A stretch of 64,000 nt of DNA from a virus, in IMG/VR virus record IMGVR_UViG_3300032323_001720, positions 5,902 to 69,901 of that record; one strand, 5' to 3'. Under the pieces are notes generated by a model, which was not told where the DNA came from, searched no databases, and was given only the letters and a program-made list of their open reading frames with translations. This document shows positions 11,217 to 53,021 of the stretch, one piece after another. How positions within the stretch are numbered: position 1 is the first letter of the stretch; the number at the start of each line of letters is the position of its first letter. Both the position numbers and the translations under genes were made by a program.

Positions 11217-14200
11217 TACAGTTACATCGTTAAGTTACGCAAACACATTTGGTGAGTGGGTTGTTGCGACTAATAATCTTATTAGAGAGAATAATGATCT
11301 TGCTGCAAATGATTATATCAAGAGCACAGGTACAGTTTATCTTAATGAAACGACACAAAACTCACTCCAGGCGAACGGAACTGTAATTGTACAGAAACAG
11401 TTACTTGTACAAGGTACCGGTTCATCTGCAACAGTACAAAATAATTTAAACGTTGGTAGTCAACTATATCTAACAAATGGTACACTAAGTTTAGTTGCTT
11501 CGGGTCAAGCAAACGTTGCTGGTCAAATTAACGGGCAGGCTTCTGGTATTGGCCTGTTTATTGCAAACAATGCACACATTGGTGGTACCACAGTATCTGC
11601 AATAAGACTCACAACAGGAGTATTGCAGGCAAACTCTTCCGTTAATACATCAAACGCTTCGATTGTAAACACGTTATATACCAAAGATTTACAGGCCAAC
11701 TCAACAATCGTTACGCCAACAATTTCTGTAACGGGTACAACGTTTACTAATGCATTACAAGCTAATGCATTTATGAGCGCACCAACAGCTTCGGTAATTA
11801 ATACTACATTTACCAATCTGTTGCAAGCCAACACTTCTACAAATACAGCGACAGCTTCTGTAACAGGAACAACTTTTACTGATGTATTACAGGCCAATAC
11901 GTCCTCAAATACTGCAACGGCTTCTGTTACTGGTACCACATTTACGAATGTATTACAGGCTAACACTTCTACAAATACAGCGACAGCTTCTGTCACTGGC
12001 ACCACATTCACAAATGTATTGCAAGCCAATACATCTACGAACACAAGATTTTCTTCTGTAACTGGTACAACATTTACTGGTACTTTACAAGCAAATACTT
12101 CTGCATTGGTTGGTACACTACAAGCCAACACATCAGTTAGTGCAGTCTCAATTTCTGCATCAGGAACAACGTTTACTAGTTCTTTACAAGCTAACAATGT
12201 TGCTACCGTAAATTCGCTGGTGGCCAATACAAATGTGGGTGCAGCAACAGTTTCTGCTACCGGTTCAACAACCACAAACATACTGCAAGCCAACACTTCT
12301 GTAAATACGGCGACAGCATCTATTACAGGTACAACATTTACGGATATTTTACAGGCGAATACGACTGCCATTGTAAATTCATTAAGAGCCAATAACGCAG
12401 TAAATACAAACTCGTTACTTGCAAATACTATTACTGTCAATAATATAATTAATGGTAATGCGGCCGCCGGTTATTTTAATAGTTTATCTGTTCAAGGTGG
12501 AGGATTAACAGTTGGTGGCAACTTTGTTATAACTGGTACAACTGTATACACTTCGAATACGTTTATTATTTCTTCAAACGTTTCATCTGCAATTTCCAGT
12601 TATTTTAATGTTGACAGAGGATCTACTGGTGTTGATGCTGCATTCCGTTGGAATGAACCAGCCAAATATTGGGACATGTTGAATGTCACATCAAACACAT
12701 ATTTCCGTGTTCTCACAGATGAATATTTGAATGACACACTAACGTCTACCAGTACAACATCTGTTGCAACTGCAAACGCACTTAACGCATTAAATACACT
12801 TTATAATGCATCAAATACATTCTTGCAAGCTGGTGTTGTTTCTGCTGGTTTGTATGCAAACGGAGCATTCCTAAGAGCTAATGCTGCATACAATTCTCAA
12901 AATACAACTGGCACATACGCAAATAATGCATATGCACAGGCAAATACTGCAACTAATAACGCAGCTGGTGCGTCACTGTATGCTAATGGTGCTTTCATAC
13001 AAGCCAATGCTGCATTCTTGGTGGCAAATACACCAACACATGTAGCCAATTCGGCAGCGTTGTATGCTAATGGTGCATTTGTGCAAGCTAATGCTGGATA
13101 TACACAGGCTAATACTGCAACCAACAATGCAGCGGGTGCTTCATTATACGCCAATGGTGCTTTTAGACAGGCTAATGCTGGTTATACTCAAGCAAATACT
13201 GCAACCAACAATGCGGCTGGTGCTTCTCTATATGCCAATGGTGCTTTCACACAAGCTAATGCTGGATATACTCAAGCCAATACTGCCACAACAAATGCAG
13301 CAACAGCAGACTCTAAAGCTGTTACGGCTGGCTCTTATGCAAACTCGGCGTATGGTCAGGCTAATACCGCCACAACAAATGCATCTGTTGCAACCAACAA
13401 TGCGGCTGGTGCTTCTCTATATGCCAATGGTGCTTTCATACAAGCAAACGCAGCATTCTTAAGAGCCAATACGCCAGATGCAATCGCAAACTCGGCCGCA
13501 TTATATGCCAACGGTGCGTTTGTTCAAGCTAACGCAGCTTTCACGACAGCTAATAGCGCATTGAATGCAAGTAATCTTTCTAGTGGTACTGTTCCTCTTG
13601 CTAGACTGAGTGGTATCACAACGACACAATTGAGTGCTAGTGCTGGTATTACGAATACACAGTTGTCGGCCAGCACAATCTCTGGTGTCTCCTTGGGTGG
13701 AACTTTAGCTTCACACACAGCAGGAACATACTTGGTCGGTGATGCTTACAATGGCAGCACATCAAGAACGTGGTCTGTTGATGCCACCACAACAAACACC
13801 ATAAACAAAATTGCTGCGAGAGATGGTAGTGGTGATATTTACGCAACAGTATTCAGAGGGCTTGCAACCAGTGCCAACTACGCTGACTTGGCAGAAAAGT
13901 ATTTGGCTGATCAAGAATATGAAGTTGGAACAGTTGTTGCTGTTGGTGGTGAAGCAGAAGTTACTGCCGGTTCATATGGTGATAGAGCAATCGGAGTAGT
14001 ATCCGCTCATCCTGCTTATATGATGAACAGTGAACTGGAAGGCGGAACTTACATTGCACTTAAAGGTAGGGTTCCAGTGAAAGTATCTGGCACTGTGCGT
14101 AAAGGACAACGTTTGGTTGCATACAACAATGGTGCGGCTGTTGCAGCAGTACCTCATGCAAATGACGTTTTTGCAATTGCACTAGAATCCAGTGATGATA

Positions 14201-14317: not shown

Positions 14318-14842
14318 ATGATGACACTAGATGAGTTTGAAAACTTCCTGTACACAGATTTGGTATACGAACAGAAAATAATATCTGTTATCGATGACCA
14401 ATCTAGACAAATATTAATTGATGGTATACATCAGTTACACCAATACCCAAACTGTACCATAAAACTGGAACAGATGGAAAAATACAATGAAAGTATTTTC
14501 CAAAAGTGTCAAGAGTTGAAGGCAAAATATTCACATCCAGGTCCAATGACTTGTCACGCATTCCTTGCATTCAAAGGTTCTAAAAGTTTTGGTTTGCATA
14601 CTGATCCAGACAATGTTATAATAGAATGTATTTTTGGTTCAAAGACATTATACGTTGATACCAAAAATGATAGAAAACATGTGCTCAAACAAGGCGAATA
14701 TATATTCATACCAGCCAACACAGAACACGAAATCGTTAATGAAGAGAAGTCATTGATATTGAGTTTTGGATTTGAAAAATTTTACGTTGAAAAGATAAAT
14801 TATGGACTTAATGTTCTATTTGAAAACGACAGAAACTTGTAA
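14318..14842 (+). CDS. JmjC/cupin-like Fe(II) oxygenase
   Basis: SFGLHTD (HxD), GSKT and L..GEYIFIP....H, the cupin-4/JmjC layout. Confidence 0.7.
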   Translation: MMTLDEFENFLYTDLVYEQKIISVIDDQSRQILIDGIHQLHQYPNCTIKLEQMEKYNESIFQKCQELKAKYSHPGPMTCHAFLAFKGSKSFGLHTDPDNVIIECIFGSKTLYVDTKNDRKHVLKQGEYIFIPANTEHEIVNEEKSLILSFGFEKFYVEKINYGLNVLFENDRNL

Positions 14843-15857
14843 CTTAAATTGTTTACATTGTTTCACTAGTGGTTCCAAAGGTGCAAAGATATATTGGAAT
14901 CATGTCAAAGTCGCTGATTGGTTACGTAAAATGTCTGTGGAAACTCAATATGCACCACATGTTCATTTTGAATTTCATGGTGGCGAACCATTTCTTGCAG
15001 ACATTTCTTCACTACAATACGTTTACGACAACTGCCAGAACTTGTGGAAAAGCCAAAGTTGGGGTATCACAACCAATCTGGCTTTCAAACTAGACCAAGA
15101 AAAAATAGACTTCATTATGGGTCCATTGGGTGGCAGAGTCGGTACCAGTTGGGATCCAGATATTCGTTTTGCAAATCCCAAACAGTATGATCTTTGGAGA
15201 AAGAATGTGCAAACACTGATTGATATGGGTGTCGTTGTGAAACTGTTTATCAGCGTAACTAAAGGCACGATTGCAATTGAACCTATCGAACTGCTTGAGT
15301 GGGTAAAGTCACTCGGTGTCAAAGAACTGGCACTGGAACGACTGACTATGAATGGTAGTGCTAAGCAGAACTTACAAATCTTTCCTTCCAATATCGAACA
15401 GGACCAGTGGTTTCTGAAGATGCACCATCAGAGTGAAGAACATGATGCGAGAAGTTGGTTTGATAATGAATTTCTGGAAACGGTGTATAATAAATTCGAA
15501 ACGGGTTTCACCGCAGGCGGAACGTTTTGTAGAGATTGTGAAGAGAAATTATTCACCGTAAATGCAGACGGTACCGTATCTGGTTGTCCCAATTCTGCGC
15601 CAGAATTTCAGTTTGGCACTATAAATGATGATATAAAAAGCCTTATAAATAGTCCAATCAGAACAGAAAACATTGCTTGTGAAAGGTCTAGGGATCCTAG
15701 ATGTTATTCGTGTGATGTATTTGAATATTGTGGTGGAGATTGTCATCAACTTGAATGGGAAAATGATGTGTGTGGTGCACCAAAAAGCTTGATGAGATTC
15801 TTAAAAAGTAATCAAAAAAGAAAAGTATGGATATTAAAAGATGGCAACATTAACTAA
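14802..15857 (+). CDS. Radical SAM protein with SPASM-like domain (rSAM-1)
   Basis: CNLNCLHC, FHGGEP and C-terminal CRDC..GC...CYSC.....CGGDC...C. Confidence 0.9.
   Translation: MDLMFYLKTTETCNLNCLHCFTSGSKGAKIYWNHVKVADWLRKMSVETQYAPHVHFEFHGGEPFLADISSLQYVYDNCQNLWKSQSWGITTNLAFKLDQEKIDFIMGPLGGRVGTSWDPDIRFANPKQYDLWRKNVQTLIDMGVVVKLFISVTKGTIAIEPIELLEWVKSLGVKELALERLTMNGSAKQNLQIFPSNIEQDQWFLKMHHQSEEHDARSWFDNEFLETVYNKFETGFTAGGTFCRDCEEKLFTVNADGTVSGCPNSAPEFQFGTINDDIKSLINSPIRTENIACERSRDPRCYSCDVFEYCGGDCHQLEWENDVCGAPKSLMRFLKSNQKRKVWILKDGNIN
15644..15651 (+). promoter_or_regulatory. Perfect T4 late promoter consensus TATAAATA inside rSAM-1, upstream of the putative substrate gene
   Basis: Exact match about 190 nt upstream of the ATG at 15841; a chance match is possible in AT-rich DNA. 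Confidence 0.4.
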
Positions 15858-16407
15858 CCCTATAAGAACACAAAACATCGTTGATAGATTTGCGGATTAC
15901 GTAACTGCAACATCAGCTACGAGTATCGTATGGGGCACAAATGCGAAACCATTTGCTGAAATGCCCGATTCAACTTTCGGTGGTACAACCAGTGGAAGAG
16001 CAATAGGTATAAATGGAGGAAGTATAGGTTCAGGTGTAATAACCGCAGCAAATATTTACAATACTCTCGTTAATGAAACTGCAGCATATACATCAATAAG
16101 AAATTTAAGAGCAATTTTGTTTGTTGATGGCGGCGGTGGAAATACAGGATCCAGAACAACTCCAGGTATCATTTATGACCAAACAGCTGTTGCATATTTA
16201 AATACCAGTTATTTACAAAGTGTTGGAACTCCATCTAATGCTGGAGTTGCTTCAGGAAATGTTGCGTCAGCAGGAAATTTGGAATCATTTTTCAATAATT
16301 TAAGAACTTCCTATAATACCGCAAGATCAAGTACCGCAACAGTTCAAGTTAATGTTTGTCATGCTTCGTGTCATAGTTCATGCCACGGTTCACGTTCTAG
16401 GAGATAA
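15841..16407 (+). CDS. Putative radical SAM substrate / RiPP-like precursor protein with C-terminal (CHxS)3-RSRR motif
   Basis: Thr/Ser/Gly/Ala/Asn-rich body; all 3 Cys and all 3 His fall in the terminal CHASCHSSCHGSRSRR; overlaps the rSAM-1 stop. Confidence 0.65.
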   Translation: MATLTNPIRTQNIVDRFADYVTATSATSIVWGTNAKPFAEMPDSTFGGTTSGRAIGINGGSIGSGVITAANIYNTLVNETAAYTSIRNLRAILFVDGGGGNTGSRTTPGIIYDQTAVAYLNTSYLQSVGTPSNAGVASGNVASAGNLESFFNNLRTSYNTARSSTATVQVNVCHASCHSSCHGSRSRR

Positions 16408-16409
16408 TA

Positions 16410-17126
16410 ATGAATATCGTTGAAACAACTGCACCAATATCTATTGATAATTTAAAAAAATATTTTGCTGACAAAACAACTTTTTTTGTTATCAATTATA
16501 AAGAAAGTACATTAAAAGGTACAAAATTGTTGACGTATATATCAAACTTGGATATACCGTGCGATATCTCTTTTAAAGACTGTTCAAATGAAGAATGTTT
16601 TGACATGATTAAAGATTATTTGAATACATCCATGATTGTTAATGTATCTTCTTTGGAAAATTCTGTTATTGCAATTCTTCATCAAGCAAAGGAGTTAGCT
16701 CCATTAGTGGATAAAGAATTTATTGAAAGCAACAAAGAAATTATAGATAAATGGGTATCAAAATTGGAAAGTTTGACTCTTTATAATATGCATATCATTA
16801 AAGAGGATGCATTCAAAGAGTTTGTTGATAGTTTTCCAGTTGATGAAACAAAAGAAATGACTGGTGTCAATTTCATAAGTCTCTTGAAACATCACAATTT
16901 TTATTCATTCTTTCAGAACACAAATCAAAATAATTTAAAATTTTATTCACACTATTTTAATGAATATGTTTTTAAAGGTAAGAATTTATTCTCTTACTGG
17001 GCTAATGAAAACAATCCTTTATTTTTACTGACGTACAGTATCGCTGAAGGACTGTTTAAAGAAAATGAATACGTTGAAATGAAAAATAAAACTATTCAGG
17101 AGTTTAAAGATGTTTCATCTGTTTAA
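16410..17126 (+). CDS. Hypothetical protein of the radical SAM island
   Basis: 238-aa ORF tightly coupled to its neighbours; no recognisable motif. Confidence 0.7.
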   Translation: MNIVETTAPISIDNLKKYFADKTTFFVINYKESTLKGTKLLTYISNLDIPCDISFKDCSNEECFDMIKDYLNTSMIVNVSSLENSVIAILHQAKELAPLVDKEFIESNKEIIDKWVSKLESLTLYNMHIIKEDAFKEFVDSFPVDETKEMTGVNFISLLKHHNFYSFFQNTNQNNLKFYSHYFNEYVFKGKNLFSYWANENNPLFLLTYSIAEGLFKENEYVEMKNKTIQEFKDVSSV

Positions 17127-18147
17127 TAAAGTTTATGTCGTTTCAGATAGTTTGATTGACATAAACTATGATAGAGTAGTACTATCAAAGAGATATGGAA
17201 TCAAAATGTATGAACAACTCGACAACGTTTCACAGGGTGAGTTGTTAATGTATGCAGATGGTTTCGCAAGTCTCGGAAAGTCTTTCGATGTTTTCATAAA
17301 AGAACTGAACGATCATATTACAAAAACAAACAAAAGAATTGCTGTTTATGTTGATGACAATTCTTTCATGGAATTGATTAGTAATTGGTTGTTCAGAATG
17401 TTTAAAAACATGGACGCAAACACCGCATGGTTTGTTGTTGATTTATATCTAAAGAAATCAAAGAAACACCAATCTTGGAGAAGCAATCATTCTTCTTTAC
17501 AGGTGGAAATATACAAAGATGTTAATGAAACCGATTTCAAGAAGATTTTCAATGGTCTTGCAGTTGATAAAATTGACACAGTATATTCCACAATTAAAGA
17601 ACAGATAAGCGTGGAATTTTTAATTGCATCATACAAACATGACGGTTCAAATCTAACACCATTGATTTCTTCTTTGGAAAAATTGTTAACAAGATCATTT
17701 CAGGAAATTTTGTTGGAAATAAAACACACTGTATATAAAAATCAACACAAATCCAACTTCAACATTTCATTTGACGAAACTTTTTTTAGTAATTCAACTC
17801 TTTATAAATCAGAATTTCTCGGAAAAGTTGGCAGTGCAAGTAACGTTGATATCACAAATTCATCCGCAGATGATGTTAAGAAGTTTAAAGACATAGCCAA
17901 ACAAGTCTATATTAATTGGGATAAATTCTCCGAGAATTCTCCTATCTTCAATAAACTAGACTGGTTCGATCTGCTTCGTGGTGGTTTAACGAAGGAAGAA
18001 GTTGATAAAATTTTACAAATGGAAAAAGAAGATACTTCCAATATCAGAATGTATTCATCTCACGATGAAGAATTAATCAATATTTACTTACTAGATCATA
18101 TACTAAATCAAAATTCGGAGCAATTGAAATCATATCAACTTAGATAA
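17110..18147 (+). CDS. Hypothetical protein of the radical SAM island
   Basis: 345-aa ORF with AGGAG RBS, overlapping the upstream gene; no recognisable motif. Confidence 0.7.
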   Translation: MFHLFNKVYVVSDSLIDINYDRVVLSKRYGIKMYEQLDNVSQGELLMYADGFASLGKSFDVFIKELNDHITKTNKRIAVYVDDNSFMELISNWLFRMFKNMDANTAWFVVDLYLKKSKKHQSWRSNHSSLQVEIYKDVNETDFKKIFNGLAVDKIDTVYSTIKEQISVEFLIASYKHDGSNLTPLISSLEKLLTRSFQEILLEIKHTVYKNQHKSNFNISFDETFFSNSTLYKSEFLGKVGSASNVDITNSSADDVKKFKDIAKQVYINWDKFSENSPIFNKLDWFDLLRGGLTKEEVDKILQMEKEDTSNIRMYSSHDEELINIYLLDHILNQNSEQLKSYQLR

Positions 18148-18158
18148 ATCAATGAATT

Positions 18159-18797
18159 ATGAATCATGTGAATCACAACAATTACTATGATTTAGGTTTT
18201 TTTCGAACGAATGTACCTGATGATATTTTAAAATTACTTTGGTCGGAAGTTTATCTGACAGAATGGATAAATGATTCTGAAGAGGGTATTTACAAACAAA
18301 TACCCTCTTGGTACAAAAAGAAAAACAAATATGCATTGAAGAAAGATGGTTCGAATAGATCCGAATATGAACGTCTGATCGGAAAAGAAATTTTCGAAAA
18401 GACTCCAAGTACACTGATAGAAATTGGCAATAAGCTTATACAGAATGAACAATTTGATTTTTTCAGAACGTACTACAAATCACACGAATTAAAATACATC
18501 GATCTCTGGAATGGTTCAGAGAGTATTGATTACCATTTCGATACAATAAATGGATGTGACACATTCATTCTGATTTACCTTACAGACTCCGAAAAATGGT
18601 CAAGTGAGTGGGGTGGTTCTATAACCATGAAGAAACAGGTCGGCAGTCTTTGTCACTATGAACAAAAAATTCTTCCTGATAATGCAACCATGTTGGTTGT
18701 AAACAATGCAAATCCACTTGTCATGCATAAGGTGGAAAAACTCCACAACACATCAATAAATAGATACACCTTCTCTTTTATTTACAAGTGGTTTTAA
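18159..18797 (+). CDS. 2OG-Fe(II) oxygenase (prolyl-hydroxylase-like)
   Basis: YHFD (HxD), LIYL...W..EWGG, distal HKV and RYT motifs. Confidence 0.8.
   Translation: MNHVNHNNYYDLGFFRTNVPDDILKLLWSEVYLTEWINDSEEGIYKQIPSWYKKKNKYALKKDGSNRSEYERLIGKEIFEKTPSTLIEIGNKLIQNEQFDFFRTYYKSHELKYIDLWNGSESIDYHFDTINGCDTFILIYLTDSEKWSSEWGGSITMKKQVGSLCHYEQKILPDNATMLVVNNANPLVMHKVEKLHNTSINRYTFSFIYKWF
18755..18762 (+). promoter_or_regulatory. Late promoter-like box (AATAAATA)
   Basis: About 37 nt upstream of the rSAM-2 start codon. Confidence 0.3.
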
Positions 18798-18798
18798 A

Positions 18799-19803
18799 TT
18801 GATAGCTGAACATGTATTGAATATACACAATAAAAGGCCAGATACTGGTGAAATTATTGTAACACTGTTTGAATATTGTGATTTGAGTTGTTTATTCTGC
18901 AACCAAGACCACGATAGCTATGAGGGTATCGATACAATAGTCGGTAAATTTGACTCAGTTAAATTATCAATCGACCAACAAATAAAAAAAGGCAAAAAAC
19001 AAATCTCCATACACATGATGGGTGGAGAATTATTCTCGGATACAGTAGAAGATAAAGTATTCGATGACTACGCCGAACTCACCAAGAAATTACTGGCATA
19101 CGGCAAAGAAATAAACATACCTCTAGAAGTTTCTTTTATTACCAACTTTGTATGGGAAAAGAAACAAAGAATAAAGAAATTTCTGGATGATAACGACATA
19201 TCGGTTATGACCAGTTATGACCCGTCAGGTAGATTCAACAAAAAAACTTTTGAAGTCTACAAAAAAAACATACAAGATTTCAAAGAATATATAATCAGTG
19301 TCAACGTCATTATGACGAAGCCAAATATAGATAAGTTCATGTCGGACAATGTACCGTTTTTCGATTACTTGTATGAAAACTTCCCAATCTATTTTGATTA
19401 TTATGGACCAGGAAAAAACCATGAATTTCTAATGGCAAAAGACGTTGAGATTCGTGACTTTATGAAATACATGTTTGAGAACTGGAACAATTGTCATCCG
19501 TTCAAAACATTTACTAATAAAACCGCAAACAAAATGTCATGTATGGATACGCATACTGTTATGCCATCCGGAAAATGGGGTGGTTGTGGTTACTTTGAGA
19601 ATTTAGAGAAAGTTATACCAATTAAACTTGTAACCGAACAAAAATGGTTTGATGATTACAATTGTTATGAATGTGAACATCTACAAAGATGCACTATGGG
19701 ATGTTTTATGAGTAATCATGTTAAAGATATGAGAACACAAAATGAATGTTGGTTAAAAGAAGTTTATGATTATGTTGATTTAGAAATTGAAAAGGAGAAA
19801 TGA
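18799..19803 (+). CDS. Radical SAM protein with Cys-rich C-terminus (rSAM-2)
   Basis: CDLSCLFC, MGGE and C-terminal C...GC...CYEC.....C..GC...C; TTG start. Confidence 0.85.
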   Translation: MIAEHVLNIHNKRPDTGEIIVTLFEYCDLSCLFCNQDHDSYEGIDTIVGKFDSVKLSIDQQIKKGKKQISIHMMGGELFSDTVEDKVFDDYAELTKKLLAYGKEINIPLEVSFITNFVWEKKQRIKKFLDDNDISVMTSYDPSGRFNKKTFEVYKKNIQDFKEYIISVNVIMTKPNIDKFMSDNVPFFDYLYENFPIYFDYYGPGKNHEFLMAKDVEIRDFMKYMFENWNNCHPFKTFTNKTANKMSCMDTHTVMPSGKWGGCGYFENLEKVIPIKLVTEQKWFDDYNCYECEHLQRCTMGCFMSNHVKDMRTQNECWLKEVYDYVDLEIEKEK

Positions 19804-19804
19804 A

Positions 19805-20905
19805 ATGATTGTACCATTAATTGAATCGAATAAAGATTTTATTGCTGCCGAAGCGGTTGATTTTGTTCGTAGAACTTATCCAGATTTCAAGTTCGATAAC
19901 GAACTTCTTCGCAGAGATGTGCATATGGTCATCGATATCTTTATGGGTGAGTTGCATATCAAAGGCGGCGTTTATTCTTATGACATTGAGGATGGTCGTG
20001 ACATTTCATCTTTTCAATTAAATAGATATATAAAGTCATTCATTGTATTCAGAAATCATTCTGAACAAACAATTAATTGTATTCAATACACTGCTGATTT
20101 AATAAAAAAAGTTATAACAAACCAGAAAGTGGAACCTGTTTATAACACACACTACCAACAATCATACAACAATGAACAAGAATTTGATAAAGAAAAATTG
20201 AATGAATTCGATACCATTTGCAGTTTAATTATTGCAAATTCCGATTCAGGTTCAAACAGAAACTATCACATCGATTTCATTGAAGAATATTTCGACAAGG
20301 GTTTCATAGTTACGAAAATTCCACCACATATACATGAAAAATTGTGGCAAGAAGTTAAAAACACCAAATGGATTGATGCCGAAAAAACAACATATAAAAA
20401 AATACCAGATTGGTATCACGAAAATGAAAAGCATTATGTTGATCCAACAGGTTTCGATAGACCTTCTTATGAAAGAAAAATTGCAGCCGATATTTTTACA
20501 AATGCACCAAAGAGTTTGATTGATATTTCGGATGAATTAATACGGGATCCATTGTTTGATCCATTACGAATGTATCGTCCACCAAATCCTGTCACAAAGT
20601 TTTTACATTTTTGGAATGGAAGTGAAAATTCACCACACCATGTTGATGCCATTGATGGTTCTGATCTTATGGTGTTTTGCTATCTCACTGAGGCAGAAGA
20701 TTGGAAAGAAGAATGGGGTGGATATATCAACATCTTGAAAGAAGTTAATTCTGAAATTACAAACACTAAAATTGTATTGCCAAATAACGGAGTAATGGTA
20801 TTAGTTAACAACTCCGCACCAATTTTTAAACATGGTATCAGAAATTTAGTTAAAAAAGATGTTAATAGATATACATACATCTTTCATTACACTTGGACAT
20901 ACTGA
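19805..20905 (+). CDS. 2OG-Fe(II) oxygenase with N-terminal extension
   Basis: HHVD, EEWGG, FKHGI and NRYT motifs; C-terminal half paralogous to 18159-18797. The ATG at 19805 follows an AAGGAG RBS. Confidence 0.8.
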   Translation: MIVPLIESNKDFIAAEAVDFVRRTYPDFKFDNELLRRDVHMVIDIFMGELHIKGGVYSYDIEDGRDISSFQLNRYIKSFIVFRNHSEQTINCIQYTADLIKKVITNQKVEPVYNTHYQQSYNNEQEFDKEKLNEFDTICSLIIANSDSGSNRNYHIDFIEEYFDKGFIVTKIPPHIHEKLWQEVKNTKWIDAEKTTYKKIPDWYHENEKHYVDPTGFDRPSYERKIAADIFTNAPKSLIDISDELIRDPLFDPLRMYRPPNPVTKFLHFWNGSENSPHHVDAIDGSDLMVFCYLTEAEDWKEEWGGYINILKEVNSEITNTKIVLPNNGVMVLVNNSAPIFKHGIRNLVKKDVNRYTYIFHYTWTY

Positions 20906-20920
20906 ATCTAAATTTTTGTT

Positions 20921-21991
20921 ATGGAATTAATTATTAAACCAACTGAGAAGTGCAACTTCAAGTGTACCTTTTGTTCAAGTACGCACATCACCGATGATAA
21001 GACAGCGGAGTTGGATCACGAATATATCTTTAAGTTTTTAAAAAGATATCCAGAAACAAACACCATCATTGTTAATGGTGGTGATCCACTAATGATGAGC
21101 CCAGAATATTACTGGAAAATAATTGAACACCTGGAAGAAATTGGTAGTGATGCTCGCATATCATTTACCAGTAATCTATGGCCATTCTATAAGAATCCTA
21201 AAAAATGGACCGAATTGTTTACGCATCCTCGCATGGGTATTACAACCAGTTTCCAGTATGGTGGTGGAAGACTTAAAGGTGACTTGACAGAATTCAGTGA
21301 AGAAGACTTCTGGAACGTCAGTGATATGATGTTGGACGTTGTTGGTTATCGCCCAGACTTCATAAGTGTTATCACTAAGGAGAATGAACATCTGGCCATC
21401 AAGAACGTTGAACTGGCAAAAAAGATGGATGTGGAATGTAAATTGAACTATGCTTTCAGTAGTGGACCTCCGGTAAAATTTAAAAACATTATCATGGGAC
21501 AACAAGGGCAACCATATTTACTAGCAGATATGTACAAAATATATGTTGAAATATGGAAGAGAAATTTGACACAGTGGGAATATAACACAAAACAGATGGT
21601 CAAGAGACTGGTTGGCCATGCAACCACTTGCCCACAAAATAGAAACTGTGATGCAAACATCCGAACATTACAACCAAGTGGTGATTATTATAGTTGCGGT
21701 GCATTTGGTGATGATAAACTTTATCAAATAAATTTTGAAAAAGAAATGTCAGGTGAAAAGATATTTCCTCTCAGATTTCAACCGGAATTACAGAGTCTTA
21801 AAGGTTCCTGTTTCACCTGCCCAATGTTTCAAATCTGTAATGGTTGCAAGAAAACAATCAAAGATTTAAAAGACCATGACTTGGTAGAAGAACACTGTTC
21901 TAAAATGAAACTGTTGGCACCAGATATCATTGAGTCAAATGGAATGACAGGTATTCTGGAACCTACACCGTATGTTAGAGAATACGCATGA
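20921..21991 (+). CDS. Radical SAM protein with SPASM-like domain (rSAM-3)
   Basis: CNFKCTFC, NGGDP and CP....C...SCG...CFTC.....C.GC...C. Confidence 0.9.
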   Translation: MELIIKPTEKCNFKCTFCSSTHITDDKTAELDHEYIFKFLKRYPETNTIIVNGGDPLMMSPEYYWKIIEHLEEIGSDARISFTSNLWPFYKNPKKWTELFTHPRMGITTSFQYGGGRLKGDLTEFSEEDFWNVSDMMLDVVGYRPDFISVITKENEHLAIKNVELAKKMDVECKLNYAFSSGPPVKFKNIIMGQQGQPYLLADMYKIYVEIWKRNLTQWEYNTKQMVKRLVGHATTCPQNRNCDANIRTLQPSGDYYSCGAFGDDKLYQINFEKEMSGEKIFPLRFQPELQSLKGSCFTCPMFQICNGCKKTIKDLKDHDLVEEHCSKMKLLAPDIIESNGMTGILEPTPYVREYA

Positions 21992-22896
21992 ACGTTTCTA
22001 TTAATCCCAGTTACTTCTGCAATTTTCGATGTGACTTTTGTTATCTAACGGAAGAACAACTGTCCGACCAGAAGAAAATAGAACTAGAAAAACTTGACGA
22101 ATTATTATCACAGGTACCCAACATCGAACATATAGATTTGTATGGTGGTGAAATTGGCGCATTGAAAAAAGATTATTTCTATGGTTTGAGAGATACAATT
22201 CGCAAACATTATGGTGGTAAAATCAATATTAATACCAATTATTCCATGTTGCACGATGGTTTCTATGAGGATGATTTTTACCTGAGTGTCAGTTATGATT
22301 GGGAAGCCAGAGAAAAGTCCGATAGAGTTTACCAGAACATGTTGATGAGTCCAGTACCCATAGCCGTACTGGTCCTGGCCAGTCCTAAAGTACTGGAGAT
22401 GAATGTTGATGAACTGATCATGTCCATGAACTTGTGCAGTAGTGTAAAAAGCCTGGAGATAAAACCTTACAGTACCAACCAGGCGAACCAACATCCTGTC
22501 ACACACAAAGACTTTGAGGAATTTGTTAAAAAGTGGGTTGAAAGTCCAGTAAAAAAGAACTTTGAATTCATTAATGAATATTATATTGAAGATGTTTTGG
22601 ATGGTAACCGAAATGCGTTCAGTGATGATCACATCTATATCACACCAAATGGCAAGTTTGCTGTATTAGAATTCGATCTAAACGACAATGAATATTTCCT
22701 GGAACTGGATAGTTGGGATGACTATGTGAAATGGACACAAAAAGAAAAACGAAGTAACGTTAGTGACATTTGTAAAAGTTGTGAATTCTATGGCAAATGT
22801 CTGACAGAACACTACCGTTATGTGAAGGATCTAAATAATAGTTGCAATGGTTATAAATTTTTAATAGAGTGGTATCGTGAACGACTGGAAAATTAG
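21988..22896 (+). CDS. Radical SAM protein (rSAM-4)
   Basis: CNFRCDFC, YGGE and C-terminal CKSC.....C...H...C; ATGA overlap with rSAM-3. Confidence 0.85.
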   Translation: MNVSINPSYFCNFRCDFCYLTEEQLSDQKKIELEKLDELLSQVPNIEHIDLYGGEIGALKKDYFYGLRDTIRKHYGGKININTNYSMLHDGFYEDDFYLSVSYDWEAREKSDRVYQNMLMSPVPIAVLVLASPKVLEMNVDELIMSMNLCSSVKSLEIKPYSTNQANQHPVTHKDFEEFVKKWVESPVKKNFEFINEYYIEDVLDGNRNAFSDDHIYITPNGKFAVLEFDLNDNEYFLELDSWDDYVKWTQKEKRSNVSDICKSCEFYGKCLTEHYRYVKDLNNSCNGYKFLIEWYRERLEN

Positions 22897-23275
22897 ACAA
22901 GAAATTTATCATAGACTTAATACCGATTTTGATGATGATTTAAAAACTAAATCGGTTGAAATGTCGGATGATATTGTGGGTAATGCTGTTCGTTATTTCA
23001 ATGAACGCGATATCGGATGGATCTATCCAGCCAAAAGTTACATGGTTGGAATATGTTATGCACGTTGGCTATCCGAACATTTTGGTGGAGAACCATTAGA
23101 TTATCTCAAAGATCAGAGTTTATTATATCACAATGATCCATATTTTAATAATTATGAACTTGATCAAAAAACATACGATGAAATATTAAGTAAAATCAAT
23201 CATTGGAATTTTGAGGAAAAAAATGGTTTGGTTCCTGATGTGAAAAAATATTTCACAGAAGAGTTTATGTTATGA
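22877..23275 (+). CDS. Hypothetical protein of the radical SAM island
   Basis: 132-aa ORF with GTG start, overlapping both neighbours. Confidence 0.65.
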   Translation: MNDWKIRQEIYHRLNTDFDDDLKTKSVEMSDDIVGNAVRYFNERDIGWIYPAKSYMVGICYARWLSEHFGGEPLDYLKDQSLLYHNDPYFNNYELDQKTYDEILSKINHWNFEEKNGLVPDVKKYFTEEFML

Positions 23276-23844
23276 TTCAAAATTTGTGGCCAACACCACT
23301 ACTAAAAACAAATTTTTCGGAAGAAATAAGAAATGATTTATTGAGTCATTTTTTAACAAAATATGACTTTTTAAATTCTTCCGGCGATCTCAGTAATGTA
23401 AACATTTTTGACGATGAATCGGATATTATCTATAAGTTTACTGATGAGGTTGTGTTACCACTTTTTGATACCTTTCTGAAAGAGAGTTTGGGGAAAGGTA
23501 TGTTAAGTTGGAAAAGTTATAAACTAAAAGGTTGGCTGACTGGATCAGGAAAAAACTACGCCTCAAATTTACACAACCATAAGGGCGCAGTAATCTCTTC
23601 AGTATTTTATTTGCTTTGTGAAGAAGTGGATGTTGGTGGTGAAATTTACTTCACCGACCCCAGACAAAATTCAAATAGAGGATATGATAATCAATTCTCC
23701 AAATGGTTTGATCATCTTTCTTTAACACCAAAAAGTGGTGATGTTGTGATTTTTCCAAGCTTTTTATATCATTATGTTGCAACTTATAGAGGAAACATCA
23801 GAATAGCCATGCCTGTTGATTTGTTTCTCTATACGAACGAGTGA
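23272..23844 (+). CDS. Putative 2OG-Fe(II) oxygenase (TIGR02466-like phage family)
   Basis: LWPTP start, HNH..A.ISSVFY, FTDPR and P..GDVVIFPSFLYH.V....R motifs. Confidence 0.8.
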   Translation: MIQNLWPTPLLKTNFSEEIRNDLLSHFLTKYDFLNSSGDLSNVNIFDDESDIIYKFTDEVVLPLFDTFLKESLGKGMLSWKSYKLKGWLTGSGKNYASNLHNHKGAVISSVFYLLCEEVDVGGEIYFTDPRQNSNRGYDNQFSKWFDHLSLTPKSGDVVIFPSFLYHYVATYRGNIRIAMPVDLFLYTNE

Positions 23845-23928: not shown

Positions 23929-24270
23929 ATGGCAGCAGGATATCAAGAACTATTCATTGAACAAGGCGCCGACTTCTCGACTTCTATCACCTTGGATGAT
24001 GTAGACAACGAACCTTTCGATTTAACTGGATACCAAGCAAAAAGTCAGATAAAGAAGTCTTACTATTCAAGTACCTCGGCAGCTCAATTCGTCATAACCA
24101 TTCCCACACCAGTGAATGGTGTGTTAAGCATGTCTATAAGTGCAGCAAATACAGCAAACATATCTGCGGGAAGATATGTGTATGACGTTTTAATTAAAAA
24201 TTCTAGTAACAATACGACTAGAGTTCTGGAAGGAATCGTTAATATTGTGCCACAAGTTACTAAATTTTAA
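23929..24270 (+). CDS. Conserved virion structural protein (beta-sandwich, tail-associated)
   Basis: L.IEQGADF, DLTGY...SQI.KSY and GRYVYDV...RVLEG, a family common in T4-like tail regions. Confidence 0.65.
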   Translation: MAAGYQELFIEQGADFSTSITLDDVDNEPFDLTGYQAKSQIKKSYYSSTSAAQFVITIPTPVNGVLSMSISAANTANISAGRYVYDVLIKNSSNNTTRVLEGIVNIVPQVTKF

Positions 24271-53013: not shown

Positions 53014-53021
53014 TATAAATA
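53014..53021 (+). promoter_or_regulatory. T4 late promoter TATAAATA
   Basis: Perfect consensus about 30 nt upstream of the gp22 ATG. Confidence 0.8.

What the first reader, a model, noticed from the sequence alone, without database searches (positions are those of the whole stretch)
15841..16407. 188-aa virion-like protein with a terminal CHASCHSSCHGSRSRR core
Seen: every Cys and His of the protein lies in the last 16 residues (16357-16404) as three CHxS units with a basic tail. The body has fibre-like composition and two loosely repeated G.(V/I)..A.N helical segments. Knowledge: the motif combines CxxxCxxxC spacing, as in Cys-rich rSAM target peptides, with His-Xaa-Ser triplets, as in the HxsA/HxsBC radical SAM system (period 3 there, period 4 here). 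Inference: a long structural leader carrying a modified core. Cys/His clustering suggests metal binding, perhaps mimicking a metallophore to engage an uptake receptor.
Basis: partly seen in the sequence, partly recalled or inferred. Interest (0 to 1): 0.85.

Follow-up and report, generated by a model that had tools for sequence, protein, structure and literature searches.

The report
Enzyme-matured Cys-His tail on phage protein
A small late protein in the tail-fibre region of a marine T4-like phage ends in an almost invariant Cys-His-x-Ser tail and is always encoded beside a set of radical-SAM enzymes, which points to an undescribed chemical finishing step for a phage protein.

Summary
The ORF (15841-16407, 188 aa) is real, and all its Cys and His lie in the terminal CHASCHSSCHGSRSRR. 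It is a large family: 855 cluster representatives (50% identity) at E<=0.001. Of the best 150, 136 end in exactly CHxxCHxxCHxxRxRR-stop. Tail identity is 0.80 against 0.35 for the body. In every in-frame genuine case found the motif is the very C-terminus.

The body is not fibre-like. AlphaFold gives a compact alpha/beta domain (pLDDT 85.8) with no known fold and a disordered tail.

The gene sits in a conserved cassette: JmjC-type cupin, rSAM/SPASM, this protein, two proteins of unknown fold, three more rSAMs, and variable 2OG oxygenases. All 73 testable loci found through the rSAM alone carry the tailed ORF downstream.

The cassette occurs in T4-like and jumbo phages (Atu_ph07, RSL2, a Pseudomonas phage) and in Bdellovibrionota, always near fibre genes. 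About half of the genes have their own TATAAATA late-promoter motif.

Best reading: a folded late protein whose tail is modified by the rSAM enzymes. The chemistry is unknown. It is not a released RiPP, and no evidence supports a metallophore mimic. I found no description in print. Earlier agents of this scan reported the same system on other DNA.

The parts
14318..14842 (+). JmjC-type cupin oxygenase, first gene of the cassette
   Evidence: Pfam Cupin_2 E 1.9e-7 and JmjC_2 E 3.7e-6. phrog_8014 E 1.5e-25. H94-x-D96...H137 is conserved in 42 orthologues. It lies upstream of rSAM1 in most loci.
14802..15857 (+). rSAM1: radical SAM/SPASM enzyme whose 3' end overlaps the substrate gene's start by 17 nt
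   Evidence: phrog_1802 E 8.8e-64. The SPASM domain TIGR04085 scores 35.4 bits against a cut-off of 27; the best named families are PapB (50.4 bits) and anSME (46.7 bits), both far below their cut-offs. C13/C17/C20 and eight C-terminal Cys are conserved in 75 orthologues.
15644..15651 (+). TATAAATA, a T4-type late-promoter-like motif 197 nt upstream of the substrate ATG, inside rSAM1
   Evidence: It is one of only 2 exact copies in the window; the other lies just before the scaffold gene. 68 of 146 family genes have the motif within 300 nt upstream, against 0.024 expected per 300 nt. That this 8-mer is the T4 late-promoter consensus is recalled knowledge.
15841..16407 (+). Substrate protein (P0001, 188 aa): folded alpha/beta body plus C-terminal tail
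   Evidence: establish the gene and its family. AF2 gives pLDDT 85.8 and pTM 0.79. No match to a solved structure.
16357..16404 (+). Invariant tail CHASCHSSCHGSRSRR, the probable modification site
   Evidence: Exact motif at the C-terminus in 136 of 150 representatives and in 138 of 138 ORFs from the viral scan. The tail is predicted disordered, pLDDT 52-63.
16410..17126 (+). p238, a conserved partner of unknown fold
   Evidence: phrog_20767 E 7.1e-70. It lies directly downstream of the substrate in 59 of 68 loci. AF2 pLDDT 93.6. No Foldseek match; best VIA Z 5.0, covering residues 1-58 only.
17110..18147 (+). p345, a conserved unknown protein
   Evidence: No Pfam, PHROG or NCBIfam hit. Homologues follow p238 in many loci.
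18159..18797 (+). 2OG-Fe(II) oxygenase, variable accessory
   Evidence: Pfam 2OG-FeII_Oxy_3 E 1.5e-5, 26.3 bits against a cut-off of 27. Present in only some loci.
18799..19803 (+). rSAM2
   Evidence: phrog_1802 E 8.6e-42. CX3CX2C and 7 C-terminal Cys are conserved in 56 orthologues.
19787..20905 (+). 2OG-Fe(II) oxygenase with an N-terminal extension, variable accessory
   Evidence: Pfam 2OG-FeII_Oxy_3 E 1.9e-5.
20921..21991 (+). rSAM3 (radical SAM/SPASM)
   Evidence: Pfam Radical_SAM E 1.5e-10. phrog_1802 E 5.4e-61. Its SPASM part matches anSME 4k36 at E 1.6e-5. Eight C-terminal Cys are conserved in 35 orthologues.
21988..22896 (+). rSAM4, with a reduced auxiliary Cys set
   Evidence: Pfam Radical_SAM E 8.4e-8. 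phrog_1802 E 2e-34. Only 4 C-terminal Cys and 2 His are conserved in 25 orthologues.
23272..23844 (+). 2OG-FeII_Oxy_5 oxygenase at the end of the cassette
   Evidence: Pfam PF13759 E 9.9e-13.

Best explanation
The 188-aa protein is the dedicated protein substrate of a conserved multi-enzyme maturation cassette. The cassette comprises a JmjC-type cupin, four radical-SAM paralogues and two partner proteins of unknown fold. It is carried in the tail-fibre/host-recognition module of T4-like and jumbo phages and in some Bdellovibrionota.

Shown:
- a folded, family-wide homologous alpha/beta body;
- a disordered, nearly invariant C-terminal (Cys-His-x-Ser/Asn)x3-Arg-x-Arg-Arg tail;
- obligate linkage to the rSAM genes;
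- catalytic motifs intact in all enzymes;
- no protease or exporter hit in the cassette;
- its own late-promoter motif in about half of the genes.

Inferred:
- The protein is made late and in excess over the enzymes.
- The RRE-less, anSME-like rSAM/SPASM enzymes bind the exposed tail directly and perform Cys-centred radical chemistry on it. I favour intramolecular thioether-type links from each Cys to the Ser/Asn three residues on.
- The cupin and the 2OG enzymes may add hydroxyl groups.
- The finished protein stays whole and acts with the fibre/baseplate apparatus, probably as a virion component.
For: Family and tail:
- 860 homologues and 855 representatives at 50% identity.
- 136 of 150 end in the exact terminal motif.
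- Tail identity is 0.80 against 0.35 for the body.
- Position 4 of each unit is Ser or Asn in 135, 131 and 131 of 136 representatives. Ser is encoded from both codon boxes.
- The motif is always terminal: 138 of 138 ORFs and 17 of 17 genuine bacterial cases.

Linkage:
- rSAM1 is directly upstream in 60 of 68 loci, and within 1.3 kb in 4 more. p238 is directly downstream in 59 of 68.
- Reciprocal test: 73 of 73 loci found through rSAM1 have the tailed ORF downstream.
- The same order occurs in Atu_ph07, RSL2, SURPRISE13 and pPa_SNUABM_DT01.
- In the small tandem type, 0 of 21 loci have an adjacent rSAM1. In 5 of 5 records checked, rSAM genes lie elsewhere on the contig; three records carry four tandem rSAMs about 8-12 kb away.

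Enzymes look competent:
- CX3CX2C and the auxiliary Cys are conserved, as is the HxD...H triad of the cupin.
- The radical-SAM motif starts within 30 residues of each N-terminus, so there is no room for an RRE domain.

Folded body: pLDDT 85.8 with the tail at 52-63. 142 of 158 bodies fall in one homology cluster.

Late expression: TATAAATA within 300 nt upstream in 68 of 146 genes, against 0.024 expected, and at different positions in different lineages.

Structural context:
- The window holds baseplate, fibre, LtfC-like, sheath, portal and capsid genes.
- The small tandem pair in L058 follows collagen-like fibre genes.
- Fusions to a Gly_rich_2 domain exist; that domain also hits a PHROG annotated 'tail fiber assembly'.
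- The Atu_ph07 paper places most MS-identified virion proteins in clusters, one of which is 'CDS 170-215'. gp170 is the homologue (section 29 read).
Against: - No modification has been observed, and nothing here reveals the chemistry. The best named rSAM families score 7-fold or more below their cut-offs.
- Four rSAMs for three Cys is unexplained.
- Virion residence is not shown. The Atu_ph07 evidence is only a cluster boundary, because Table S5 was closed. The paper's CDS numbers are assumed to equal the RefSeq gp numbers.
- RSL2, FLC6, SURPRISE13 and DT01 annotate the homologue as hypothetical, not as a virion protein.
- Small tandem homologues are not adjacent to rSAM genes: 0 of 21. One record of the five checked had only weak rSAM hits (G004).
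- The TATAAATA count in the window alone is not above chance: 2 found against 4.3 expected. Many of the -176 to -200 copies share ancestry.
Confidence: 0.68

Rival explanations
1. Same cassette and same substrate, but the chemistry is anSME-like. One or more Cys are oxidised to C-alpha-formylglycine, an aldehyde, which could then form covalent links to partner proteins.
For: - anSME is the second-best named family for rSAM1 (46.7 bits) and for rSAM3 (46.3 bits).
- anSME is the only solved relative of rSAM3, at E 1.6e-5.
- The enzymes have anSME-like size and no N-terminal extension.
- The last unit, C-H-[G/S/N]-S-R, has the Cys...Arg spacing of the sulfatase C-x-[P/A]-x-R motif. That motif is recalled knowledge; the small residue at +2 and the invariant Arg at +4 are.
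Against: - The scores are far below the anSME cut-off of 349.
- The first two units have Cys, not Arg, at +4.
- There is no sulfatase domain.
- The invariant His and the Ser/Asn are not explained.
Confidence: 0.12
2. The tail is not modified. It is a Cys/His metal or iron-sulfur site. The protein would be either a metalloprotein of the fibre apparatus or an electron or cluster donor that serves the neighbouring radical-SAM enzymes, whose real substrate is something else.
For: - Three Cys and three His lie in 10 residues, and the body is nearly Cys-free: 0 Cys outside the tail in 86 of 136 representatives.
- Radical-SAM enzymes need a reductant, and phage fibres often bind metals through His. 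Both points are recalled knowledge.
- The variable 2OG oxygenases may well act on other proteins.
Against: - Ser/Asn at position 4 and the R-x-R-R end are conserved as strongly as the ligand residues. A simple metal site does not require that.
- An own late promoter, tandem duplicated copies, divergent bodies and loop insertions fit a product better than a redox helper.
- rSAM1 to tail linkage is 73 of 73.
Confidence: 0.12
3. One reading: a RiPP precursor. The body would be a leader, and the modified 16-residue core would be released, for instance as a metallophore mimic that engages an uptake receptor.
For: - The core is far more conserved than the rest.
- rSAM/SPASM enzymes of peptide-maturase type lie beside it.
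Against: - None of the cassette genes searched has a protease or transporter hit.
- The enzymes have no RRE.
- The 'leader' is a 172-residue, confidently folded and conserved domain. It is sometimes fused behind a glycine-rich domain that also hits a PHROG annotated 'tail fiber assembly'.
- The gene lies in fibre modules and has late-promoter motifs.
Confidence: 0.05

Closest known systems
HXS antiphage system (HxsA matured by rSAM enzymes HxsB/HxsC with HxsD; Nat Commun 2026, PMC13128918; abstract and section 9 read)
   Same: A whole protein, not a short peptide, carries short His-x-Ser repeats rich in basic residues. More than one radical-SAM enzyme matures it, together with small partner proteins. 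Each unit of the phage tail contains H-x-S.
   Different: - The period is 4 with an invariant Cys, against 3 without Cys.
- The phage repeats are at the extreme C-terminus.
- There is no signal peptide or peptidoglycan-binding domain.
- It is encoded by a phage or a predator, not as a defence system.
- There are four rSAMs plus a cupin.
- HxsB and HxsC models score 36.1 and 28.7 bits against cut-offs of 370 and 268.
Ranthipeptide/sactipeptide maturases (PapB with freyrasin, SCIFF; recalled knowledge)
   Same: SPASM radical-SAM enzymes act on regularly spaced Cys in a repeated C-x-x-x motif. PapB is the best named hit of rSAM1.
   Different: - The score is 50.4 bits against a cut-off of 340.
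- The acceptor would be Ser/Asn at i+3, not Asp/Glu at i+4.
- The substrate is a folded 188-aa protein without leader processing.
- Several paralogous enzymes are involved.
Anaerobic sulfatase-maturating enzyme with its sulfatase (formylglycine; recalled knowledge)
   Same: An RRE-less rSAM/SPASM enzyme modifies a Cys in a short linear motif ending in Arg, within a full-size protein that stays intact.
   Different: - There is no sulfatase fold.
- The motif is repeated three times and is C-terminal.
- His is invariant.
- The scores are far below the cut-off.
QhpC/QhpD of quinohemoprotein amine dehydrogenase (recalled knowledge; weak hit of rSAM2, E 1.3e-4)
   Same: An rSAM/SPASM enzyme installs several Cys thioether cross-links in a small protein subunit that remains part of a larger assembly.
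   Different: There is no sequence relationship at family level (20.8 bits against a cut-off of 453), no dehydrogenase partners, and the setting is a phage fibre module.

Membership tests
HXS system (HxsA/B/C/D) | The effector matches the NCBIfam models, which include the His-Xaa-Ser system | tested here: not met
   P0001 has no NCBIfam family at E<=0.01 and no Pfam family.
HXS system (HxsA/B/C/D) | The rSAM enzymes reach the HxsB (TIGR03978) and HxsC (TIGR03977) cut-offs | tested here: not met
   rSAM1 against HxsB scores 36.1 bits (cut-off 370). rSAM3 against HxsC scores 28.7 bits (cut-off 267.9).
HXS system (HxsA/B/C/D) | Tandem HxS repeats of period 3, N-terminal processing and a peptidoglycan-binding domain (from PMC13128918, abstract and section 9) | tested here: not met
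   The phage tail has period 4 with Cys at the C-terminus. No domain hit. Processing could not be tested.
Ranthipeptide (PapB type) | The maturase reaches the NF047865 cut-off | tested here: not met
   50.4 bits against a cut-off of 340.
Ranthipeptide (PapB type) | Cys-X3-Asp/Glu acceptor motifs in a short precursor (recalled definition) | tested here: not met
   The tail has no Asp or Glu, and the protein is 188 aa with a folded body.
anSME / formylglycine | The maturase reaches the TIGR03942 cut-off | tested here: not met
   rSAM1 scores 46.7 bits and rSAM3 46.3 bits against a cut-off of 349.45.
anSME / formylglycine | The substrate is a sulfatase with C/S-x-P/A-x-R (recalled definition) | tested here: not met
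   No sulfatase domain. Only the third unit has Cys...Arg spacing, with G/S/N at +2.
Radical SAM/SPASM superfamily (the enzymes) | A CX3CX2C motif plus a C-terminal Cys-rich SPASM domain | tested here: met
   TIGR04085 scores 35.4 bits against a cut-off of 27 for rSAM1. Pfam SPASM scores 24.1 against 21.5. The Cys residues are conserved. rSAM4 keeps only a reduced set.
RiPP (strict sense) | A leader/core precursor with proteolytic release of the modified core | tested here: inconclusive
   No protease or exporter hit in the cassette genes searched, and the 'leader' is folded. A host protease cannot be excluded.
Virion structural protein | Detected in purified particles | not testable with these tools
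   There is only the cluster boundary 'CDS 170-215' in the Atu_ph07 paper. Its Table S5 is closed. Other records say 'hypothetical'.

The most novel reading that the evidence does not exclude
Phages and predatory Bdellovibrionota share a previously unrecognised kind of protein maturation. Four radical-SAM enzymes and iron oxygenases would build a cross-linked, possibly metal-binding Cys/His knot at the C-terminus of a fibre-associated protein. This chemically finished tail would be a working part of the machinery that recognises or breaches Gram-negative envelopes.
Probability: 0.3. Interest if true: 0.88.

Novelty: new variant of a known kind. Interest (0 to 1): 0.8.

Why it matters
Radical-SAM maturation is known for small peptides and a handful of cellular proteins. 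I found no description of it for proteins of a phage's host-recognition module.

This cassette is abundant: 855 sequence clusters at 50% identity. It spans marine T4-like phages, soil jumbo phages with cultured hosts, and predatory bacteria. Its product therefore probably matters for attacking Gram-negative cells.

The system offers three things:
- new enzymology: four paralogous rSAMs, a JmjC-type cupin and at least one partner of no known fold (p238; p345 was not folded), all around one 16-residue motif;
- a directly testable substrate;
- a possible new principle of virion chemistry.

Cultured carriers such as Atu_ph07 and pPa_SNUABM_DT01 make it experimentally reachable.

Tried and rejected
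- **tblastn of P0001 against the GenBank phage collection:** no match. The bodies of the jumbo-phage homologues are too divergent. They were reached through rSAM1 and p238 instead.
- **Fibre-like fold:** rejected. The model is a compact alpha/beta domain.
- **Known fold for the body:** Foldseek on the PDB gave a best E of 0.94. BFVD returned only uncharacterised phage proteins, including the Atu_ph07 homologue. VIA wide gave a best Z of 3.7. The PDB profile search gave one chance-level hit at E 0.008.
- **Known fold for p238:** Foldseek gave a best E of 0.59. VIA gave Z 5.0 over residues 1-58 only. The PDB profile search found nothing.
- **ESM Atlas for p238 and p345:** no usable hit.
- **Complex prediction of the substrate with p238:** no verdict, score 0.00. 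This is not evidence either way.
- **The look-up of sequencing runs (RNA):** no RNA holder was listed.
- **Plasmids:** no tblastn match for the window's p238 (E<=1e-3) or rSAM3 (E<=1e-20). An earlier agent's 'megaplasmid' note was therefore not reproduced with these queries.
- **Myovirus prophage in Bdellovibrionota:** the tail-sheath family phrog_23 was found in 0 of 5 carrier genomes. These genomes may be incomplete.
- **c-type haem attachment:** the tail contains two CX3CH strings. I considered this and set it aside because there is no signal peptide and no haem-lyase hit in the cassette. It would also not explain Ser/Asn at position 4 or the RxRR end.
- **Lanthionine-type dehydration:** less likely, because Asn replaces Ser at position 4 in 8, 27 and 10 of 136 representatives.
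- **Virion proteomics:**
  - Atu_ph07 (PMC6102473, passages and section 29 read) gives only the cluster range; its Table S5 is closed.
  - RP12/RP31 (PMC5468394, passages and section 14 read) and FLC6 (PMC8066314, passages only) do not list the homologue.
  - AP-J-162 (PMC11242549, passages only) adds nothing.
- **Literature:**
  - 0 papers for 'SPASM + bacteriophage + precursor peptide + radical SAM'.
  - 0 papers for 'phage-encoded + radical SAM + post-translational modification + virion'.
  - The listings held nothing on this system.
  - PMC7029224 (passages only) merely mentions radical-SAM cassettes in the host-recognition cluster of pelagimyophages.
  - PMC12801897 (passages only) calls a cyanophage rSAM an 'antibiotic synthesis gene'.
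Full report
**The observation**

Window 15841-16407 (+) is an ATG-started ORF of 188 codons. Its only Cys and His residues are C173/H174, C177/H178 and C181/H182. They form CHAS-CHSS-CHGS, followed by RSRR and a stop (16357-16404).

The composition claim holds: T, A, G, N and S make up 97 of the 172 body residues. The 'two repeated G.(V/I)..A.N helical segments' do not hold up. The strict pattern occurs once, at 139, which is a loop in the model, and a loosened version occurs at 65.

**How conserved is the tail?**

A word-indexed search found 860 homologues at E<=0.001. Of the 120 best (61-100% identity), 118 keep all three Cys-His pairs and all 120 end in RR.

An exhaustive profile search with alignment A1 (73 sequences) found 855 representatives of 50%-identity clusters at E<=0.001, and 589 at E<=1e-10. 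Of the best 150:
- 136 end in exactly CHxxCHxxCHxxRxRR;
- the other 14 are one-residue insertions, two- or four-unit variants, or truncated ends.

Position 4 of each unit is Ser or Asn in 135, 131 and 131 of the 136.

I aligned 139 of these representatives; 11 were dropped by a length filter. The tail is 0.80 identical to P0001 and the body 0.35.

Among 135 distinct tail DNAs, the conserved residues use synonymous codons freely: TGT and TGC, Ser from both AGY and TCN, Arg from both AGR and CGN. Selection is therefore on the peptide.

**The motif is always the C-terminus**

I scanned IMG/VR with a degenerate DNA pattern that did not include a stop codon. In 112 of them the match lies in an ORF. 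All 138 such ORFs, including the window, Atu_ph07 and RSL2, end exactly at the motif. Seven loci had no ORF match.

The same scan of one genome per prokaryotic species returned 120 loci. This served as a control:
- 70 matches lay in no ORF of at least 40 aa;
- 33 were internal low-complexity strings such as CHRRCHRR;
- 17 were genuine C-terminal CHxS-type tails.

**The neighbourhood**

The window is the structural module of a T4-like myovirus. It holds a baseplate wedge gene, a phrog_358 protein, long fibre genes, an LtfC-like protein, terminase, sheath, portal, scaffold and major head protein.

The gene sits in a co-directional, overlapping block:
1. cupin/JmjC (14318-14842);
2. rSAM/SPASM (14802-15857, overlapping the substrate's start by 17 nt);
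3. the substrate;
4. p238;
5. p345;
6. a 2OG oxygenase;
7. rSAM2;
8. a 2OG oxygenase;
9. rSAM3;
10. rSAM4;
11. an unknown protein;
12. a 2OG oxygenase.

None of the cassette genes searched hits a protease or transporter family.

phmmer with the window's proteins shows the same order across the viral loci: cupin, rSAM1, substrate, p238, p345, rSAM2, then rSAM3 and rSAM4. Counting only loci with enough flank, among substrates longer than 145 aa:
- rSAM1 is directly upstream in 60 of 68, and within 1.3 kb in 4 more;
- p238 is directly downstream in 59 of 68, and within 1.3 kb in 4 more.

The reciprocal test does not depend on the motif. I fetched 78 IMG/VR loci through rSAM1 homology (45-94% identity). 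Of these, 73 had at least 900 nt downstream, and all 73 carry an ORF ending in the strict motif within 2.9 kb on the same strand.

**A second architecture**

In 29 loci the tailed proteins are small (124-140 aa), mostly in tandem pairs. None has rSAM1 adjacent: 0 of 21 testable.

I searched five such contigs whole, and all five hold phrog_1802 genes. Three have four tandem rSAMs about 8-12 kb away, one has a strong hit at the contig edge, and one has only weak hits. These records are 11-30% complete.

In L058 the pair lies directly behind two collagen-like tail-fibre genes.

**Named phages and bacteria**

In the GenBank phage collection, rSAM1 and p238 find the same jumbo phages at 30-50% identity: Atu_ph07, Phosso, RSL2, RSF1, RsoM3USA, the FLC phages, SURPRISE13 and pPa_SNUABM_DT01.

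In Atu_ph07, RSL2, SURPRISE13 and DT01 the gene after the rSAM ends in the same tail, although the bodies are very different. All four are annotated 'hypothetical'.

Of the 17 genuine bacterial loci, 12 are in Bdellovibrionota assemblies, on contigs of up to 1.29 Mb. The other five are MAG contigs with phage-like content.

In Bdellovibrionota:
- A sample of 201 genomes of that phylum held p238 in 7.
- Five carrier genomes had no phrog_23 tail sheath.
- In L199 a neighbouring ORF carries the Peptidase_S74 fibre-chaperone domain.
- The Bdellovibrionota proteins show no obvious signal peptide.

**The protein itself**

AlphaFold2 with A1 gives pLDDT 85.8 and pTM 0.79. The model has three long helices packed on a sheet (H10-25, H69-85, E86-95, E109-120, H144-162, E165-172). 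The tail, residues 173-188, has pLDDT 52-63.

No solved structure resembles it: Foldseek best E 0.94, VIA best Z 3.7, and a PDB profile search with only a chance-level hit. BFVD returns only uncharacterised phage proteins, including the Atu_ph07 homologue.

With the tail removed, 142 of 158 bodies join one homology cluster. The body is therefore a conserved domain with variable loops and insertions, not a leader.

Longer forms exist in which a Gly_rich_2 domain precedes the whole domain. That domain also hits a PHROG annotated 'tail fiber assembly'.

p238 folds confidently (pLDDT 93.6), and it too has no known fold.

**Expression signal**

The T4 late-promoter consensus TATAAATA (recalled knowledge) occurs twice in the window: 197 nt before this gene, inside rSAM1, and just before the scaffold gene. 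That count is not above chance, at 4.3 expected.

Across the family, however, 68 of 146 genes have the 8-mer within 300 nt upstream. The background in the same loci is 0.024 per 300 nt. The motif sits at lineage-specific positions: about -13, -34 to -45, -72 to -77, -97, and -176 to -200. This suggests the substrate is transcribed late on its own. It is sequence inference only.

Its third-position GC (0.185) is the lowest of the 20 genes compared. It is nearer the fibre genes (0.24-0.26) than the enzymes (0.30-0.37).

**The enzymes**

All four rSAMs keep CX3CX2C within 34 residues of the N-terminus, so there is no RRE domain. Conserved C-terminal Cys counts are:
- rSAM1 and rSAM3: eight each, a full SPASM set;
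- rSAM2: seven;
- rSAM4: four, plus two His.

The cupin keeps HxD...H.

The named families only brush them. For rSAM1, PapB scores 50.4 bits against a cut-off of 340, anSME 46.7 against 349, and HxsB 36.1 against 370. For rSAM3, DynA scores 47.8 against 450 and HxsC 28.7 against 268. Only the generic SPASM domain passes its cut-off.

**Interpretation**

The evidence fits a whole-protein substrate whose exposed C-terminal tail is modified by RRE-less SPASM enzymes. This resembles how anSME treats sulfatases or how HxsB/C treat HxsA, which carries a +8 Da change on an SHRSS motif (PMC13128918, section 9).

I favour Cys-to-Ser/Asn (i+3) thioether rings, for three reasons: the acceptor position is conserved, the spacing is regular, and the best family hit is a ranthipeptide maturase. 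This is inference. Formylglycine formation and His/Ser chemistry of the HXS type remain open.

The function of the finished protein is unknown. Its constant place among fibre genes, in phages and beside a fibre-chaperone-type gene in a predator, points to the apparatus that engages the prey envelope. Virion residence is only hinted at by the Atu_ph07 virion-protein cluster 'CDS 170-215', which begins at the homologue.

**Novelty**

My searches of the held library found no description of this system. Papers on carrier phages list the rSAM genes without comment.

Earlier agents of this scan reported the same system on other genomes and named HXS as the closest known system. I reproduced the following independently:
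- the conservation of the tail;
- the linkage to the rSAM genes;
- the occurrence in predatory bacteria;
- the late-promoter motif.

I could not verify their statement that a homologue is in purified particles. I did not reproduce a megaplasmid occurrence.

Noticed in passing
window 53014-53021: The only other exact TATAAATA in the window lies 31 nt before the head scaffolding gene (53052), as expected for a T4-type late promoter.
   Followed up: partly
L003, L029, L037, L058, L079 and 24 more loci (e.g. L058:6046-6857): A second class of tailed proteins: 124-140 aa, mostly in tandem pairs, not adjacent to the rSAM genes but on the same contigs. In L058 the pair lies directly behind collagen-like fibre genes and is followed by three phrog_31457 paralogues.
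   Followed up: partly
P0182, P0294-P0297 (metagenomic proteins, 374-461 aa): Fusion forms in which a Gly_rich_2 (PF21722) domain precedes the complete body and tail. The N-terminal part also hits phrog_863, annotated 'tail fiber assembly'.
   Followed up: partly
L036:8105-8878 (-): A 257-aa homologue with four CHxN units (CHSNCHSNCHSNCHTNRSRR). Five rSAM-like ORFs lie in the same locus. This is the only hint that the number of units and the number of enzymes might co-vary.
   Followed up: no
P0267, P0274, P0281: Variants with four CH units whose end is a Gly/Pro-rich stretch instead of RxRR. They may be frameshifted or a true subclass.
   Followed up: no
L199:448-1575 (-), Bacteriovoracaceae contig: An ORF with the Peptidase_S74 fibre-chaperone domain lies about 1.2 kb from the cassette's first rSAM gene in a predatory bacterium whose genome has no phrog_23 tail sheath.
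   Followed up: partly
window 23929-24270: The 113-aa protein just after the cassette matches the LtfC-like beta-sandwich domain (E 6.4e-7). LtfC is a fibre-attachment protein type, so the fibre module resumes here.
   Followed up: no
window 11523-12440 (-) and 13064-13462 (+): Long ORFs lie inside or antisense to the 1008-aa repeat-rich fibre gene. They are most likely artefacts of its repetitive Thr/Ala/Asn coding sequence.
   Followed up: no
window 15841-16407: Third-position GC of the substrate gene (0.185) is the lowest of the 20 genes compared. The surrounding enzyme genes range from 0.23 to 0.37.
   Followed up: no
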